IMG/VR virus record: IMGVR_UViG_3300047170_000095
Span: 1 to 38,008 of that record
Source of the DNA: a virus
Direction: 5' to 3' (one strand)
DNA: 38,008 nucleotides
The stretch's first letter is position 1. The number at the start of each line of letters is the position of its first letter. The position numbers and the translations under genes were made by a program. Positions 12,172 to 13,967 of the stretch are shown one piece after another. A model generated the notes under the pieces. The model saw only the letters and a program-made list of their open reading frames with translations. It ran no database searches and was not told the origin of the DNA.

Positions 12172-12199
12172 TTGCATTTAAATATTTTTATGTTATTTT
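12172..12199 (+). promoter_or_regulatory. Candidate sigma70-type promoter for the ncRNA array and TROVE gene
   Basis: TTGCAT (12172-12177), a 16-nt spacer, then TGt-TATTTT (extended -10). It lies about 20 nt upstream of the first RNA stem. Confidence 0.35.
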
Positions 12200-12218
12200 T
12201 TATCTTTAAAAATCTTGT

Positions 12219-12326
12219 CGAAGAAAAGAGTTACTTAGCACTGCAAATGCCCGGGTTATTGGTTCGAATCCAATTGCGGCGAAAGTCGTATAGCTCAATT
12301 GGAAGAGCAGGAAATTACTTTTTTCG
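12219..12326 (+). ncRNA. Y-RNA candidate with a circularly permuted tRNA-like module (YrlA-type)
   Basis: T-arm ATTGG-TTCGAAT-CCAAT (12258-12274). Stem-loop GCGGC-GAAA-GTCGT (12276-12289). D-arm GCTC-AATTGGAA-GAGC (12293-12308). The T-arm precedes the D-arm. A closing stem CGAAGAAAAG/CTTTTTTCG encloses the module. It lies immediately upstream of the TROVE gene. Confidence 0.65.
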
Positions 12327-12365
12327 CATGTTACAGATTTTTATTTAAGTTTTGGCATGGTGAAT

Positions 12366-12455
12366 AAGAAGGGTTACTTGGTTAAAGTGCTTGAAAAAGC
12401 ATGAAAAGCTTCGAATCCTTTAGATGATTTAGAAATAATTCATCTTTACCCTCTT
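12366..12455 (+). ncRNA. Second structured RNA candidate (Y-RNA-like)
   Basis: Closing stem AAGA(A)GGGT/ACCCTCTT. It has internal hairpins, a TTCGAATCC T-loop-like segment, and the shared motif GTTACTTGG. Confidence 0.4.
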
Positions 12456-12489
12456 AAATTGTTCCTGAATTTGGTTTTGTCCGTGATGT

Positions 12490-12575
12490 AGTTATGGGTT
12501 ACTTAGCCTAAAGCTAGATTTCCCCCCAATTTGGGCAAATGTCGAAAGACGTTTACCTGTGGCTTTTGTTTGCGC
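12490..12575 (+). ncRNA. Third structured RNA candidate (boundaries loose)
   Basis: Carries the shared motif GTTACTTAG (12498-12506). Hairpins are TAGC-CTAA-AGCTA and AAATGTC-GAAA-GACGTTT. Confidence 0.3.
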
Positions 12576-12591
12576 ACTTTTTATTAACCTT

Positions 12592-12659
12592 AGCGAATTA
12601 TTCGGATACTTTGAACTATACTCAATACGTGCCGAATACGCTTATTCTAGGTTTTTTTT
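12592..12659 (+). promoter_or_regulatory. Large hairpin plus T-run directly upstream of the TROVE start (terminator of the RNA array, or a leader structure)
   Basis: AGCG-aat-TATTCGG pairs with CCGAATA-CGCT (12592-12642). T8 lies at 12652-12659 and the ATG at 12660. Confidence 0.35.
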
Positions 12660-13967
12660 ATGAAAGTTAATGTCTCTAATACTCCTACCACATATGAAGG
12701 CGGTCGAGCTTTTGACATATCGCCTTACGAACGTTTAAAACGTACTGTTCTTGCTTGCATGCTTTTTGAAGATAATTTTTATGAAAACGGCGTTAAAGCT
12801 GCCGACCGTATCGTTGAATTATGTAGTAAAGTATCATCTTTGCAAATAGGTGTACTCGCATTAGACGCAGCAACAAAATACCATCTAAGGCATGTTCCTT
12901 TGCAAATGATTGTAGAGGCTTTAAAGCATAAAGAAAAGAATACGTGGCTATCAGACACTATAAATAGTGTAATTACGCGCCCTGACATGATGACGGATTT
13001 GCTTGCTCTTTATTGGAAAAATGGGCGTAAACCTCTTGCTCATCAGCTTAAAAAAGGTCTGGCCAAAGCATTCACAAAATGGGATGAATATCAATTAAGC
13101 AAATATAATCGTAATAATCCAATTAAATTGCGTGATGTTCTTTTTCTTTGTCACGCTAAACCTTTAAATGAAGAACAAGCTGACTTATGGAAACGCTTAG
13201 TTAATAAAGAATTAAAAACAGCAGATACATGGGAAACAAGATTAAGCGCAGGTGAAAATAAAAAAGAATCTTTTACGGAATTACTTCAATCAAAGAAGAT
13301 GGGTAAACTTGCTATTCTAAGAAACCTTAGAAATATGCATGAGCAGGGTGTTGATAAAAAACTTGTTTCAGATGAATTAATTCGAAATATGAAAGAAATG
13401 CTGCCATTTCAATATATCGCAGCAGCCAGGGAATGTCCGCAATGGGAGGATATTATTGATCCTGCTATGGTATTGGCATGTTCTTTAAAACCTAAATTGC
13501 TTGGTAAAACGATTATTTGCGTTGATGTTTCTGGTTCCATGGATCAAGGAATATCAGGAAAATCAAAAATGAACCGTATTGATGCTGCTTGTGCGATGGC
13601 AATTTTATTAAGAGAGTGCATTGATGATATTACCATTTATTCTTTTAGTGATGGAATTGCTTTAATTCCTCCAAGGCATGGGATGGCTTTACGTGATGCA
13701 ATTGTTTCATCACAAACACATCATGGCACTTACTTAGCAAATTTGCTAAATAATATTGTCATGTCAAATTTTGATTACGATCGGTTGATTGTCATTACAG
13801 ATGAACAAATTGCTGATAATATTCCTAAAATGCCTAAAGGAAAAAATTATATATTAAATATTGCTGGTTATCAAAACGGAATTGGCAACCCAAATCAATG
13901 GGTTACCATTACAGGATTTTCAGAAGCCTCTATTGATTTCATTAGGGAATTAGAAAATAAAATTTAA
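12660..13967 (+). CDS. TROVE-domain (Ro60/Rsr-like) protein with a C-terminal vWA domain, 435 aa
   Basis: The N-terminus TYEGGRAFDISPYERLKRTVLACMLFEDNFYENG is typical of TROVE proteins. ICVDVSGSM matches the DxSxS MIDAS motif of vWA domains. The gene is adjacent to the Y-RNA-like RNAs. Confidence 0.75.
   Translation: MKVNVSNTPTTYEGGRAFDISPYERLKRTVLACMLFEDNFYENGVKAADRIVELCSKVSSLQIGVLALDAATKYHLRHVPLQMIVEALKHKEKNTWLSDTINSVITRPDMMTDLLALYWKNGRKPLAHQLKKGLAKAFTKWDEYQLSKYNRNNPIKLRDVLFLCHAKPLNEEQADLWKRLVNKELKTADTWETRLSAGENKKESFTELLQSKKMGKLAILRNLRNMHEQGVDKKLVSDELIRNMKEMLPFQYIAAARECPQWEDIIDPAMVLACSLKPKLLGKTIICVDVSGSMDQGISGKSKMNRIDAACAMAILLRECIDDITIYSFSDGIALIPPRHGMALRDAIVSSQTHHGTYLANLLNNIVMSNFDYDRLIVITDEQIADNIPKMPKGKNYILNIAGYQNGIGNPNQWVTITGFSEASIDFIRELENKI

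What the first reader, a model, noticed from the sequence alone, without database searches (positions are those of the whole stretch)
12172..13967. Phage-encoded Ro60/TROVE-vWA protein with an upstream array of Y-RNA-like RNAs, one a permuted tRNA mimic
The 435-aa ORF has a TROVE-type N-terminus (TYEGGRAF..LFEDNFYENG) and a vWA MIDAS motif (DVSGSM). The 440 bp upstream contain no ORF but are densely structured. At 12258-12308 there is a perfect T-arm (ATTGG-TTCGAAT-CCAAT), a GAAA-capped acceptor-like stem, and a canonical D-arm (GCTC-AATTGGAA-GAGC). The T-arm comes before the D-arm, and the module is closed by a bulged stem of about 9 bp (12219-12228 with 12318-12326). That permuted order is the layout described for bacterial YrlA Y RNAs, which bind Rsr. 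Two further stem-closed modules and a terminal hairpin follow. The motif GTTACTT(A/G)G occurs once in each of the first three modules (12230, 12373, 12498) and may be the protein-binding strand. A Ro/Y-RNA ribonucleoprotein module in a small podovirus, inserted antisense within the late structural operon, is uncommon. Its role in infection is unknown; candidates are RNA quality control, tRNA-related decoy activity, or counter-defence.
Basis: partly seen in the sequence, partly recalled or inferred. Interest (0 to 1): 0.75.

Follow-up and report, generated by a model that had tools for sequence, protein, structure and literature searches.

The report
Phage Ro60 gene with Y-RNA array
A 38-kb phage carries a gene for a ring-shaped Ro60-type RNA-binding protein, preceded by four small structured "Y RNA" genes, one of which imitates a tRNA; this protein-plus-RNA kit is real here but is already known from many bacteria and phages.

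Summary
ORF 12660-13967 (+) encodes a Ro60-family protein: Pfam TROVE and vWA_Ro60 score above their cut-offs, and the predicted fold best matches Thermus phage phiLo Ro60.

The 455 nt upstream (12205-12659) are four abutting Y-RNA-like modules, not three plus a hairpin. Each has a covarying outer stem, the published Ro-binding motif GNCGAAG or a variant of it, a second stem, a (G/A)(U/A)UACUU motif containing the published YUAY, and a conserved 3' CGNUUGUUNC strand.

Module 1 (12205-12345) is a YrlA-type permuted tRNA mimic with V hairpin, T arm, GAAA-capped acceptor-like stem and D arm. It matches Rfam YrlA at E=1.4e-6, which is below Rfam's gathering score.

A covariance model built here finds the four modules as the top four hits in the genome. 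It also finds 160 same-strand modules next to homologous genes in 88 sources (viral and phage loci plus this window) and 72 in 42 bacterial loci, with strong covariation.

YrlA RNAs next to Ro60 genes were reported in 254 bacteria and 22 phages in 2014. A phage Ro60 with upstream Y-like RNAs was characterised in 2025. This is therefore a new member of a known kind.

Possibly new: the last module buries the Ro gene's Shine-Dalgarno sequence.

Noticed in passing: the neighbouring capsid gene carries three group I introns.

The parts
12172..12199 (+). Putative sigma-70-type promoter of the array: TTGCAT (12172-12177), 16-nt spacer, extended -10 TGtTATTTT (12191-12199). The predicted start is about 12206, at the first base of module 1.
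   Evidence: Read from the sequence. It was not picked up by the consensus scan (7 of 12 hexamer matches). Relatives have stronger promoters at the same place: L091 TTGACA-17-TATATT, L089 TTGATT-17-TGtTATAAT, L085 TGaTATAAT. Inferred, not shown.
12205..12345 (+). Module 1: YrlA-type Y RNA with a permuted tRNA-like domain. Features in order:
- outer stem 12208-12215 with 12335-12342
- G12217:C12334 and U12218:A12333
- Ro motif GUCGAAG 12217-12223
- stem A 12223-12230 with 12318-12325
- GUUACUU 12230-12236
- V hairpin 12238-12250 (GCA-CUGCAAA-UGC)
- T arm 12258-12274
- acceptor-like stem 12275-12290
- D arm 12293-12308
- 3' motif CGCAUGUUAC 12325-12334
   Evidence: Rfam YrlA 37.5 bits, E=1.4e-6. 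MFE fold. All 32 modelled pairs form. R1 144.8 bits, but this sequence is in the seed. Covariation of all five helices. A15:U48 Levitt-type pair.
12347..12476 (+). Module 2: Y-like RNA. It has motif GGUGAAU (12359-12365), GUUACUUGG (12373-12381), an apical hairpin, a degenerate T arm (AAAGC-UUCGAAU-CCUUU) and a second hairpin. It has no D arm. Its 3' strand is AAAUUGUUCC.
   Evidence: R1 26.9 bits, E=2.6e-4 in the whole window with filters off. Orthologous modules with an intact T arm occur in L167, L085 and L090. The change G19->U is matched by C127->A (read from the sequence).
12477..12579 (+). Module 3: Y-like RNA. It has motif GAUGUAG (12485-12491) and GUUACUUAG (12498-12506). Its stem A is G:U-rich (UUAUGGG with CCUGUGG). 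Its 3' strand is CUUUUGUUUGC.
   Evidence: This is the weakest module: R1 14.6 bits, E=0.14. It is still the 4th-best hit in the genome, fills the gap between modules 2 and 4 exactly, and carries both motifs. Four G:U pairs make the stem specific to the + strand (read from the sequence).
12580..12659 (+). Module 4 (leader module): a minimal Y-like RNA that ends at the start codon. It has motif AGCGAAU (12592-12598), GAUACUUUG (12605-12613) and stem A UAUUCGG with CCGAAUA. The 3' strand of its outer stem, CU-AGGU, contains the likely Shine-Dalgarno AGG 8 nt before the ATG.
   Evidence: R1 37.4 bits, E=1.2e-6. Alignment of 12 orthologous leader modules: 11 of 14 pairs show changes on both sides. 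The SD-like purines lie in the stem in 10 of 12 sequences.
12660..13967 (+). Ro60-family (TROVE + vWA) protein gene, 435 aa. MIDAS D289-x-S291-x-S293, T357, D381.
   Evidence: Pfam TROVE, vWA_Ro60 and VWA_2 are all above their cut-offs. PHROG 850 'RNA-binding protein', 134 bits. PDB 9kop/9l5y at E=3e-23. AF2 model pLDDT 83; Foldseek TM 0.73-0.77 to phiLo Ro60. The MIDAS residues are invariant in 40 homologues.

Best explanation
The locus is a self-contained Ro60/Y-RNA ribonucleoprotein cassette.

Proposed mechanism, with each step marked:
1. One + strand transcript starts at about 12206 and carries four Y-type RNAs followed by the Ro60 mRNA (inferred).
2. Host RNases cut it into RNAs of about 80-140 nt (inferred).
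3. Each RNA presents the same docking site for the Ro ring. The site is a helix interrupted by a conserved internal loop: 5' G-N-[Y-G-W-A]-G opposite 3' C-G-N-UUGUU-N-C. The architecture is shown by covariation. Binding is inferred from the published GNCGAA motif and from phiLo mutagenesis.
4. Each RNA carries a different apical domain. Module 1 carries a permuted tRNA-like domain (V, T, acceptor-like, D).
5. By analogy with D. radiodurans Rsr-Yrn1-PNPase and phage phiLo Ro60-Yrl-PNPase, the RNAs tether or gate the Ro ring and couple it to a host partner such as PNPase. This would reshape RNA decay or blunt a host defence during infection (inferred).
6. The last module lies in the Ro mRNA leader and pairs with the Shine-Dalgarno sequence. 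Ro binding there could feed back on Ro translation (inferred).
For: Protein:
- Pfam TROVE and vWA_Ro60 are above their cut-offs.
- Full-length homology to the solved phiLo Ro60, and the predicted fold matches.
- Four of the seven phiLo RNA-contact basic residues that I mapped (the eighth named residue, K193, was left unmapped) align to K131, K132, R158 and K167 here. This uses the alignment, PMC12135203 section 19, and an inferred numbering offset of 8.

RNA:
- Rfam YrlA E=1.4e-6.
- The four modules are the top four hits of model R1 over both strands of the whole genome, and they tile 12205-12659 exactly.
- R1 gives 160 hits in 88 sources (87 viral/phage loci plus the window) and 72 in 42 bacterial loci. 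All are on the strand of the TROVE gene. In the bacterial loci all lie upstream; in the viral loci nearly all do.
- On 134 distinct sequences, 90.8% of cells pair, against 41-46% when partners are slid. 31 of 32 pairs have changes on both sides. The covariation score is 0.573 against about 0.1.
- The Levitt-type 15:48 pair covaries: G:C 44, A:U 8, G:U 0.

Motifs: GNCGAAN0-1G and YUAY are the published YrlA signatures (PMC4201824).

Function by analogy:
- phiLo Ro60 binds two upstream Yrls, with Kd about 17 nM measured for a Yrl2 mimic. Single CGAA mutations weaken binding 3-4 fold. The complex binds host PNPase (PMC12135203).
- The Ro60-like gp130 of phage Bas63 counters the Ppl defence system (bioRxiv 10.1101/2024.10.10.617714).
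Against: - There are no expression, processing or binding data for this locus.
- Module 1 scores 37.5 bits against Rfam's gathering score of 69 for YrlA, so it is not a member by Rfam's own threshold.
- Module 3 is weak on its own (14.6 bits).
- In modules 2-4 the CGAA core is UGAA, UGUA and CGAA respectively. Single CGAA substitutions reduced phiLo binding only 3-4 fold, so whether these variants bind is open.
- The alignment used for pair counts was fitted to my model, which inflates the percentage paired. The slid controls and the independent MAFFT/RNAalifold result mitigate this.
- The host, the partner protein and the timing of expression are unknown.
- The promoter is a weak consensus match.
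Confidence: 0.85

Rival explanations
1. The upstream region is mainly a cis-acting 5' leader of the Ro60 mRNA, with structured elements that control transcription read-through or translation. On this view it is not a set of released, trans-acting Y RNAs.
For: Module 4 abuts the ATG, and its outer stem includes the SD-like AGG(U). In many loci the last module ends 0-30 nt before the gene. No terminator separates the array from the gene.
Against: - Modules occur in variable number (1-5) and order.
- They lie downstream of the gene in some loci: L098, L151, L154. In Salmonella they also lie downstream, by my recollection of the rsr-yrlBA-rtcBA operon.
- Homologous RNAs are stable, Ro-bound species in Salmonella, Deinococcus and Mycobacterium (PMC4201824).
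- A leader would not need a complete tRNA-like tertiary fold with a covarying Levitt pair.
- The two roles are not exclusive for module 4.
Confidence: 0.1
2. The tRNA-like part is a decayed or dimeric tRNA gene remnant (the T arm of one tRNA and the D arm of the next) with no relation to the TROVE protein.
For: The T and D arms are near-canonical. The Rfam tRNA model gives a weak partial hit at 12219-12282 (15.7 bits, E=3.2). Chen et al. warn that tandem tRNAs can mimic YrlA.
Against: - ARAGORN finds no tRNA in the window.
- The stem between the T and D arms is a closed 6-bp hairpin with a GAAA loop, leaving no room for tRNA ends.
- The same permuted order recurs with compensatory changes in about 79 distinct sequences, always on the strand of a TROVE gene.
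- The flanking Ro-type stems covary.
Confidence: 0.02
3. The cassette is an inert passenger: a moron acquired from a bacterium that is not expressed or not used by the phage.
For: It is on the opposite strand to the structural genes. Proteins about 50% identical are abundant in Acidobacteriota chromosomes. The neighbouring capsid gene looks damaged: there are frame problems in exon 2.
Against: - The cassette sits next to the capsid gene in several related phage contigs with 53-76% protein identity: L167, L168, L091/L092.
- The protein alignment shows about 90 invariant positions, including the MIDAS residues.
- The RNA stems are kept by compensatory changes.
- All of this points to purifying selection within the phage lineage.
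Confidence: 0.03

Closest known systems
Thermus phage phiLo Ro60 with Yrl1/Yrl2 (PDB 9KOP, 9L5Y; Hu et al. 2025, PMC12135203)
   Same: A phage-encoded Ro60 ring with a vWA domain. Y-like RNAs carrying the CGAA motif lie directly upstream on the same strand. It is the best sequence match (E=3e-23, full length) and the best fold match (TM 0.73-0.77).
   Different: Only 23-24% identity. The protein here is about 65 residues shorter (435 against 500). There are four modules instead of two. One module here has a full tRNA-like domain, which is not described for Yrl1/Yrl2. Binding and PNPase recruitment are shown for phiLo and untested here.
Salmonella Typhimurium Rsr with YrlA/YrlB (Rfam RF02553; Chen et al. 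2013/2014, PMC4201824)
   Same: Module 1 has the YrlA layout: GNCGAAN0-1G, YUAY, then the V, T, AS and D stem-loops in that order, a Levitt-pair option, and the same strand as the Ro gene within 4 kb. Modules 2-4 resemble YrlB in keeping the Ro motif without the full tRNA domain.
   Different: - It scores below Rfam's gathering threshold (37.5 against 69).
- Stem 3 of the Rfam consensus is replaced by a conserved single-stranded GUUACUUNG plus a V hairpin.
- Both strands of the docking site are conserved here (5' GNYGWAG and 3' CGNUUGUUNC). The paper says only the 5' strand is recognisable in Salmonella.
- The protein is not an Rsr equivalog (18 bits against 900).
- There are no rtcBA genes nearby.
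Deinococcus radiodurans Rsr-Yrn1-PNPase (RYPER)
   Same: Several ncRNA genes lie upstream of the Ro gene. The Y RNA acts as a tether between the Ro ring and an exoribonuclease, which is the model I adopt for function. Both strands of the Ro-binding helix are retained.
   Different: In Yrn1 the T and D arms are oriented differently relative to the RNA 5' end, and it is thought to have a separate origin (PMC4201824). No PNPase link has been tested here.
Mycobacteriophage Ro60 + YrlA (e.g. ET08; 22 phages in Chen et al. 2014)
   Same: A phage-borne Ro60 gene with adjacent YrlA-like RNA(s), found with the same kind of covariance-model search.
   Different: Those are large myoviruses of Actinobacteria. 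This is a 37.9-kb genome from an unknown low-GC host whose portal has no relative among 50,697 phage records.
Escherichia phage Bas63 gp130 (Ro60-like anti-Ppl factor; bioRxiv 10.1101/2024.10.10.617714)
   Same: A phage Ro60-like protein next to tRNA-like genes. It is the only phage case I found with a genetic phenotype (counter-defence).
   Different: The similarity there was structural only. No homology between gp130 and this protein was tested here. It is unknown whether this phage's host has Ppl.
Metazoan Ro60-Y RNA (Rfam RF00019)
   Same: A ring protein is bound by a small RNA through a bulged terminal helix. The 5' strand GGUCCGA resembles GNCGAA, and the 3' strand UUGAC resembles UUGUU (the latter from my recollection of hY RNA sequences).
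   Different: No Rfam Y_RNA hit. No tRNA-like domain in animals. Pol III transcription in animals.

Membership tests
Ro60 / TROVE-vWA protein family | TROVE (HEAT-repeat ring) domain above Pfam's gathering score | tested here: met
   PF05731, 45.5 bits against a cut-off of 23
Ro60 / TROVE-vWA protein family | C-terminal Ro60-type vWA domain with MIDAS residues (DxSxS...T...D) | tested here: met
   PF25045, 30.9 bits against 27.7. D289, S291, S293, T357 and D381 are invariant in 40 homologues.
Ro60 / TROVE-vWA protein family | Overall Ro60 fold (helical repeat ring closed by the vWA domain) | tested here: met
   AF2 model pLDDT 83.3, pTM 0.76. The top 13 Foldseek PDB hits are all Ro60/Rsr, with query-normalised TM 0.65-0.77. 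This is a prediction, not an experimental structure.
Ro60 / TROVE-vWA protein family | Binds Y RNA and misfolded RNA | not testable with these tools
   Only indirect evidence: 4 of the 7 phiLo RNA-contact basic residues that I mapped (of 8 named in the paper) are conserved in the pairwise alignment.
Bacterial Rsr (NCBIfam NF041674 equivalog) | Score above the curated equivalog cut-off | tested here: not met
   18 bits against a cut-off of 900, and only the vWA part aligns. It belongs to a shorter (about 435-aa) subfamily common in phages and Acidobacteriota.
YrlA Y RNA (Rfam RF02553; Chen et al. 2014) | Rfam covariance model at gathering score | tested here: not met
   37.5 bits against 69. 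E=1.4e-6 with a full-length model match at 12240-12340. No hit in gathering mode.
YrlA Y RNA (Rfam RF02553; Chen et al. 2014) | GNCGAAN0-1G motif near the 5' end | tested here: met
   GUCGAAG at 12217-12223. The motif definition is from PMC4201824.
YrlA Y RNA (Rfam RF02553; Chen et al. 2014) | Conserved YUAY that begins the V loop | tested here: met
   UUAC within GUUACUU at 12230-12236. It is nearly invariant in the module alignments.
YrlA Y RNA (Rfam RF02553; Chen et al. 2014) | T, acceptor-like (AS) and D stem-loops in that order, closed by a long stem | tested here: met
   All 32 modelled pairs form in the window. All five helices covary across 134 sequences.
YrlA Y RNA (Rfam RF02553; Chen et al. 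2014) | tRNA-type tertiary pair 15:48 kept by compensatory change | tested here: met
   G:C 44, A:U 8, A:C 2, G:U 0; Fisher p=4e-8, not corrected for phylogeny. The window has A15:U48.
YrlA Y RNA (Rfam RF02553; Chen et al. 2014) | Encoded within 4 kb of a Ro60 gene, on the same strand | tested here: met
   315-455 nt upstream on the + strand. All 232 model hits in other loci are on the gene's strand.
YrlA Y RNA (Rfam RF02553; Chen et al. 2014) | Stable small RNA bound by Ro60 and modified by TruB/DusA | not testable with these tools
   Needs RNA-seq, RIP and modification mapping.
tRNA | Cloverleaf with an open acceptor stem and an anticodon arm in the canonical order | tested here: not met
   ARAGORN finds 0 genes. 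Rfam tRNA gives 15.7 bits, E=3.2. The acceptor-like stem is closed by GAAA.
Metazoan Y RNA (Rfam RF00019) | Match to the covariance model | tested here: not met
   No hit at E<=10 in 12000-12720.

The most novel reading that the evidence does not exclude
The array may be a polyvalent adaptor set with built-in feedback. On this reading, four Y RNAs share one Ro-docking site but carry four different, separately conserved apical domains. Each would couple the same Ro ring to a different host partner. Module 1's tRNA-like body, whose V hairpin ends in an anticodon-loop-like 7-nt loop (YU-NNN-RA), could serve as bait for tRNA-directed enzymes or defence nucleases. The fourth module would be a Y-RNA mimic inside the Ro mRNA leader that sequesters the Shine-Dalgarno sequence, so that free Ro represses its own translation. 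As far as I found, neither autoregulation of Ro60 through a cis Y-RNA mimic nor division of labour among arrayed Y RNAs has been described.
Probability: 0.2. Interest if true: 0.6.

Novelty: new member of a known kind. Interest (0 to 1): 0.35.

Why it matters
What Ro60/Y-RNA particles do in bacteria and phages is still largely open. The only phage data I found are in vitro binding for phiLo and one counter-defence phenotype for Bas63.

This locus adds a compact, complete example: a 37.9-kb genome with one Ro gene, four RNAs and a likely promoter. It belongs to a phage clade with dozens of near-complete metagenomic relatives, which together give a covariation-supported consensus of the Ro-docking site on both strands.

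That consensus, and the observation that the last module pairs with the ribosome-binding site, are directly testable with EMSA and reporter fusions. The locus does not change the known picture: YrlA-type RNAs next to Ro60 genes have been known since 2014.

Tried and rejected
- Rfam in gathering mode on the whole window: no hit. Only the permissive E-value mode recovers YrlA.
- blastn of the locus against 50,697 phage records: no match. tblastn with the portal protein: no match. The phage lineage and its host therefore stay unidentified.
- A scan of species-representative genomes gave only about 50%-identical proteins, mostly in Acidobacteriota MAGs, so it gave no host call either.
- The cmscan alignment places the 5' strand of the closing stem at 12241-12246. 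I rejected this, because relatives show that the true 5' strand lies upstream at 12208-12230, with compensatory changes.
- I considered that the V hairpin is an anticodon arm. It sits in the variable-arm position of the permuted tRNA (as in Chen 2014), its stem is only 3-4 bp, and the 'anticodons' differ between relatives. I list it as an observation only.
- I considered a functional link between the Ro cassette and the introns in the adjacent capsid gene. Relatives with intron-less capsid genes (L168, L091, L167) keep the cassette, so there is no obligatory link.
- The consensus scan found a strong promoter-like site at 11837-11866 (+). It lies inside the capsid exon on the antisense strand, and I did not use it.
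- MFE folding of the whole 460 nt mixes the modules and was not relied on.
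Full report
**1. The observation.**

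- ORF 12660-13967 (+) encodes 435 aa with TYEGGRAF, LFEDNFYENG and DVSGSM.
- Upstream, ATTGG-TTCGAAT-CCAAT (12258-12274), TGCGGC-GAAA-GTCGTA (12275-12290) and GCTC-AATTGGAA-GAGC (12293-12308) form three adjacent hairpins in the order T, acceptor-like, D. The MFE fold of 12205-12345 reproduces them inside a long closing stem.
- GTTACTT(A/G)G occurs at 12230, 12373 and 12498, and a variant GATACTTTG at 12605. The degenerate pattern has 6 matches in the window against 1.6 expected, and four of them lie within 384 nt on one strand.

**2. The protein.**

- Pfam TROVE (45.5 bits against a cut-off of 23), vWA_Ro60 (30.9 against 27.7) and VWA_2 all pass their curated cut-offs. PHROG 850 'RNA-binding protein' matches end to end.
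- The best solved relative is the Ro60 of Thermus phage phiLo (9kop/9l5y): E=3e-23, residues 9-432 aligned to 21-483.
- An AlphaFold2 model built on 40 homologues (pLDDT 83, pTM 0.76) has Ro60-family structures as all 13 best PDB matches. phiLo Ro60 comes first (TM 0.73-0.77), followed by human and Xenopus Ro60 and D. radiodurans Rsr.
- The MIDAS residues D289, S291, S293, T357 and D381 are invariant among homologues.
- The protein is not an Rsr equivalog by NCBIfam (18 bits against 900). It belongs to a shorter subfamily of about 435 aa that is very large. There are 7,989 database clusters at E<=1e-30 among the 8,000 candidates scored and 97 phage records, including Xanthomonas phages, CcrColossus, Brevundimonas jumbo phages and crAss001. 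There are also many Acidobacteriota chromosomes.

**3. The RNA array.**

In gathering mode Rfam finds nothing in the window, and ARAGORN finds no tRNA. In E-value mode the only credible hit in 12000-12720 is YrlA (RF02553), full length, 37.5 bits, E=1.4e-6. The same sub-threshold YrlA hits lie upstream of the homologous genes of Xanthomonas phage Olaya (two) and Caulobacter phage CcrColossus (four).

I collected closer relatives, printed their upstream regions, and saw a common module plan:
- an outer stem of about 8 bp;
- U-G-N;
- the motif Y-G-W-A-G;
- a second stem of 7-8 bp ('stem A');
- G(U/A)UACUU(N)G;
- a variable apical domain;
- the 3' strand of stem A;
- C-G-N-UUGUU-N-C;
- the 3' strand of the outer stem.

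A MAFFT alignment of nine YrlA-type modules, folded with RNAalifold, gave 23 pairs, 15 of them with compensatory changes. For example, the outer stem is AAAAAUCU/AGAUUUUU in the window, AAUCCGCU/AGCGGAUU in L085 and AAACAUGU/ACAUGUUU in L165.

I built a covariance model (R1, 141 positions, 32 pairs). With filters off, over both strands of the whole window, its four best hits are 12205-12345 (144.8 bits; this sequence is in the seed), 12580-12659 (37.4), 12347-12476 (26.9) and 12477-12579 (14.6). They tile the intergenic region without gaps, and nothing else in the genome reaches E<0.6. The region is therefore four modules.

**4. Generality and covariation.**

- R1 found 160 hits at E<=0.01 in 88 sources (87 viral/phage loci plus the window). 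Every hit is on the strand of the TROVE gene, and nearly all lie directly upstream, in arrays of 1-5. 83 of the 88 sources have at least one hit.
- In 42 bacterial loci, mostly Acidobacteriota MAGs, R1 found 72 hits, all on the gene's strand and all upstream.
- On the 134 distinct aligned sequences, 90.8% of cells pair, against 41-46% when partners are slid by 1-3 columns. 31 of 32 pairs show changes on both sides, and the covariation score is 0.573 against 0.08-0.12.
- That alignment is fitted to the model, which favours pairing. However, the size of the effect, the slid controls and the independent RNAalifold result all point the same way.
- About 79 of the 134 sequences carry the T arm, and the rest are short modules.
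- The tRNA-type Levitt pair 15:48 covaries: G:C 44, A:U 8, A:C 2, G:U 0. The window and L165 have A15:U48, and most others have G15:C48.

**5. Comparison with the literature.**

Chen et al. 2014 (PMC4201824) defined YrlA by these features:
- the 5' motif GNCGAAN0-1G, proposed as the Rsr contact and related to metazoan GGUCCGA;
- a conserved YUAY that starts the V loop;
- the V, T, AS and D stem-loops;
- tRNA-like tertiary pairs, including a compensating Levitt pair;
- a location within 4 kb of the Ro60 gene on the same strand.

They reported 355 candidates in 254 bacteria and 22 phages, sometimes several per locus. Module 1 meets every sequence-level criterion: GUCGAAG at 12217-12223, and UUAC inside GUUACUU at 12230-12236. 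The more likely protein-contact motif lies 7-8 nt upstream of it, together with the conserved 3' UUGUU strand.

Hu et al. 2025 (PMC12135203) showed the following for phage phiLo:
- Ro60 binds two Y-like RNAs encoded upstream of its gene (Kd about 17 nM for a Yrl2 mimic).
- Each base of CGAA contributes 3-4 fold to binding.
- The complex binds host PNPase and attenuates it.

Using their residue list and the alignment (with an inferred numbering offset of 8), K141, K142, R169 and R178 of phiLo align to K131, K132, R158 and K167 here. R137, R163 and R173 are not conserved, and I did not map K193.

A preprint reports that the Ro60-like gp130 of phage Bas63 counters the Ppl defence system. A jumbo-phage survey lists TROVE proteins among RNA-repair genes.

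**6. Details that may be new.**

(a) Both strands of the docking site are conserved in this clade. G13:C136 and N14:N135 pair and covary. Between them and stem A lies an asymmetric internal loop, Y-G-W-A opposite G-N-U-U-G-U-U.

(b) The four module types are separately conserved among relatives: the YrlA type, a 'T-arm-only' type, a three-hairpin type and a leader type.

(c) The leader module ends at the start codon. The 3' strand of its outer stem is the Shine-Dalgarno-like sequence, and the pairing is kept by compensatory change: ACCU/AGGU in the window, UCCG/CGGA in L089 and UUCAG/CUGGA in L088. This suggests occlusion of the ribosome-binding site and possibly Ro-dependent feedback, but that is inference only.

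(d) In many relatives the V hairpin is a 3-4-bp stem with a 7-nt loop of the form YU-NNN-RA, like an anticodon loop. The window has GCA-CUGCAAA-UGC.

**7. Context.**

The window is a complete circular assembly of 37,881 bp, with a 127-nt exact terminal repeat. It encodes TerL, portal, capsid and tail-fibre proteins on the minus strand, and RecT/RecE-like and DnaC-like replication genes.

The cassette lies between the portal and capsid genes on the opposite strand. Next to it are a minus-strand gene (13990-14664) and two further + strand ORFs (14729-15570) with no family match. In relatives L167, L168 and L091/L092 the array also abuts the capsid gene, so the position is stable in the clade.

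A weak extended -10 promoter (TTGCAT-16-TGtTATTTT, 12172-12199) ends 6 nt before module 1. Relatives have stronger promoters at the same place. Tail morphology ('podovirus') could not be established.

**8. Verdict.**

This is a new member of a known kind of system. Function during infection remains inferred from homologues. My preferred model is a Ro-Y RNP that engages a host exoribonuclease or defence factor, with the tRNA-like module as a stabilising or partner-binding domain.

**9. Side finding: the capsid gene.**

The capsid gene next to the array is split. Compared with the intact 322-aa homologue in L168, the window matches in five pieces: 11954-11748, 11518-11414, about 11320-11283, 11086-10898 and 10559-10130. 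The pieces are separated by intervening sequences of 229, 93, 196 and 338 nt.

Three of the intervening sequences are homologous to each other and show group I hallmarks:
- The 5' exon ends in a U that pairs with a G of an internal guide sequence.
- The guide also pairs with the 3' exon (P10).
- The intron ends in G.
- There are core blocks GAGACUAAAC...ACGC-GAAA-GCGU-AUGCGAUAGUCC.

The 3' part of the 196-nt element is 78% identical over 76 nt to the 265-bp intron of mycobacteriophage BAKA, whose splicing was confirmed by RT-PCR (PMC3706429). Rfam gave no group I hit.

Two things remain unexplained. The 93-nt element has a guide sequence but no room for a catalytic core. Exon 2 carries a +1/-1 indel pair that puts a stop codon in frame.

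Noticed in passing
window 10130-11954 (minus strand): The major capsid gene is split into five pieces relative to the intact 322-aa homologue in L168. The intervening sequences are 11747-11519 (229 nt), 11282-11087 (196 nt) and 10897-10560 (338 nt). They are homologous to each other and have group I hallmarks: a U:G pair at the 5' splice site in P1, P10 pairing, a terminal G, and GACUAAA / AUAGUC core blocks. The 196-nt element is 78% identical over 76 nt to the RT-PCR-verified intron of mycobacteriophage BAKA. Rfam finds no group I match at E<1.
   Followed up: partly
window 11413-11321 (minus strand): A fourth intervening sequence of 93 nt lies in the capsid gene. It has a P1/P10-type guide sequence (AACAC-GCCCUCUU, opposite exon ends AAGAGGGU and GUGUU), but the guide sits near its 3' end and there is no room for a catalytic core. 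How it would be removed is unexplained. It could be spliced in trans or be a decayed intron.
   Followed up: partly
window 11518-11414 (minus strand, capsid exon 2): Relative to L168 there is an extra G (GATGGCGC against GATGCGC) and, 43 nt later, a missing base. The conserved peptide AQMAFFGTGCIIN is therefore in a shifted frame, and the main frame hits TAG. This is an assembly error, a very recent defect, or recoding. It is unresolved.
   Followed up: no
window 1-127 and 37882-38008: An exact 127-nt terminal direct repeat. The window is a circularly closed assembly of a 37,881-bp genome.
   Followed up: yes
window 12043-12130: A conserved hairpin pair lies between the capsid start codon and the Y-RNA promoter: GATAG..CTATC, then TTACGCGAA-TGTCC..GGACT-TGCGTAA followed by ATTTTTT. 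It is also present in L167, L168 and L091. On the + strand it looks like an intrinsic terminator. On the - strand it would lie in the capsid mRNA leader.
   Followed up: no
window 25419-25508: Four tandem copies, 22-23 nt each, of GTAGGTAAATTT(T/G)AC(T/G)(A/T)(G/A)GGGG(G) lie inside ORF 25005-25883 (-), just upstream of the DnaC-like loader gene. They look like origin iterons inside a replication-initiator gene.
   Followed up: no
window 25971-26002 and 26238-26269: Two copies of a GC-rich hairpin followed by a T run (AACCCCGTTGCAAGCGGGGTTTTT). They are probably intrinsic terminators.
   Followed up: no
window 12238-12250; relatives in alignment A3: In many sequences the V hairpin of YrlA-type modules has a 3-4-bp stem and a 7-nt loop of the form YU-NNN-RA, like an anticodon loop. 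The 'anticodon' triplets vary (GCA here; UGU, GAU, UUU, GUU and others elsewhere).
   Followed up: partly
L003 (Bacteroides phage crAss001) 4588-4818: Downstream of the crAss001 TROVE gene, Rfam's tRNA model matches with an 82-nt insertion in the anticodon region (46.6 bits). My Y-RNA model gives an overlapping weak hit (26 bits). This is a possible tRNA/Y-RNA hybrid or an intron-containing tRNA in an unannotated 900-nt gap.
   Followed up: no
L090 3561-5303: The capsid homologue of this related viral contig is also interrupted. Residues 1-122 and 118-188 are about 1.16 kb apart, near the same codon as the window's third intervening sequence. This suggests a recurrent intron insertion site.
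   Followed up: no
window 22517-22551 and 23402-23436: A 35-nt repeat, 97% identical, spans a ribosome-binding site and a start codon (GGAARGAAAAAAATGAATGTGCAATTAGACCTTTT). Two neighbouring + strand genes therefore share their 5' ends.
   Followed up: no
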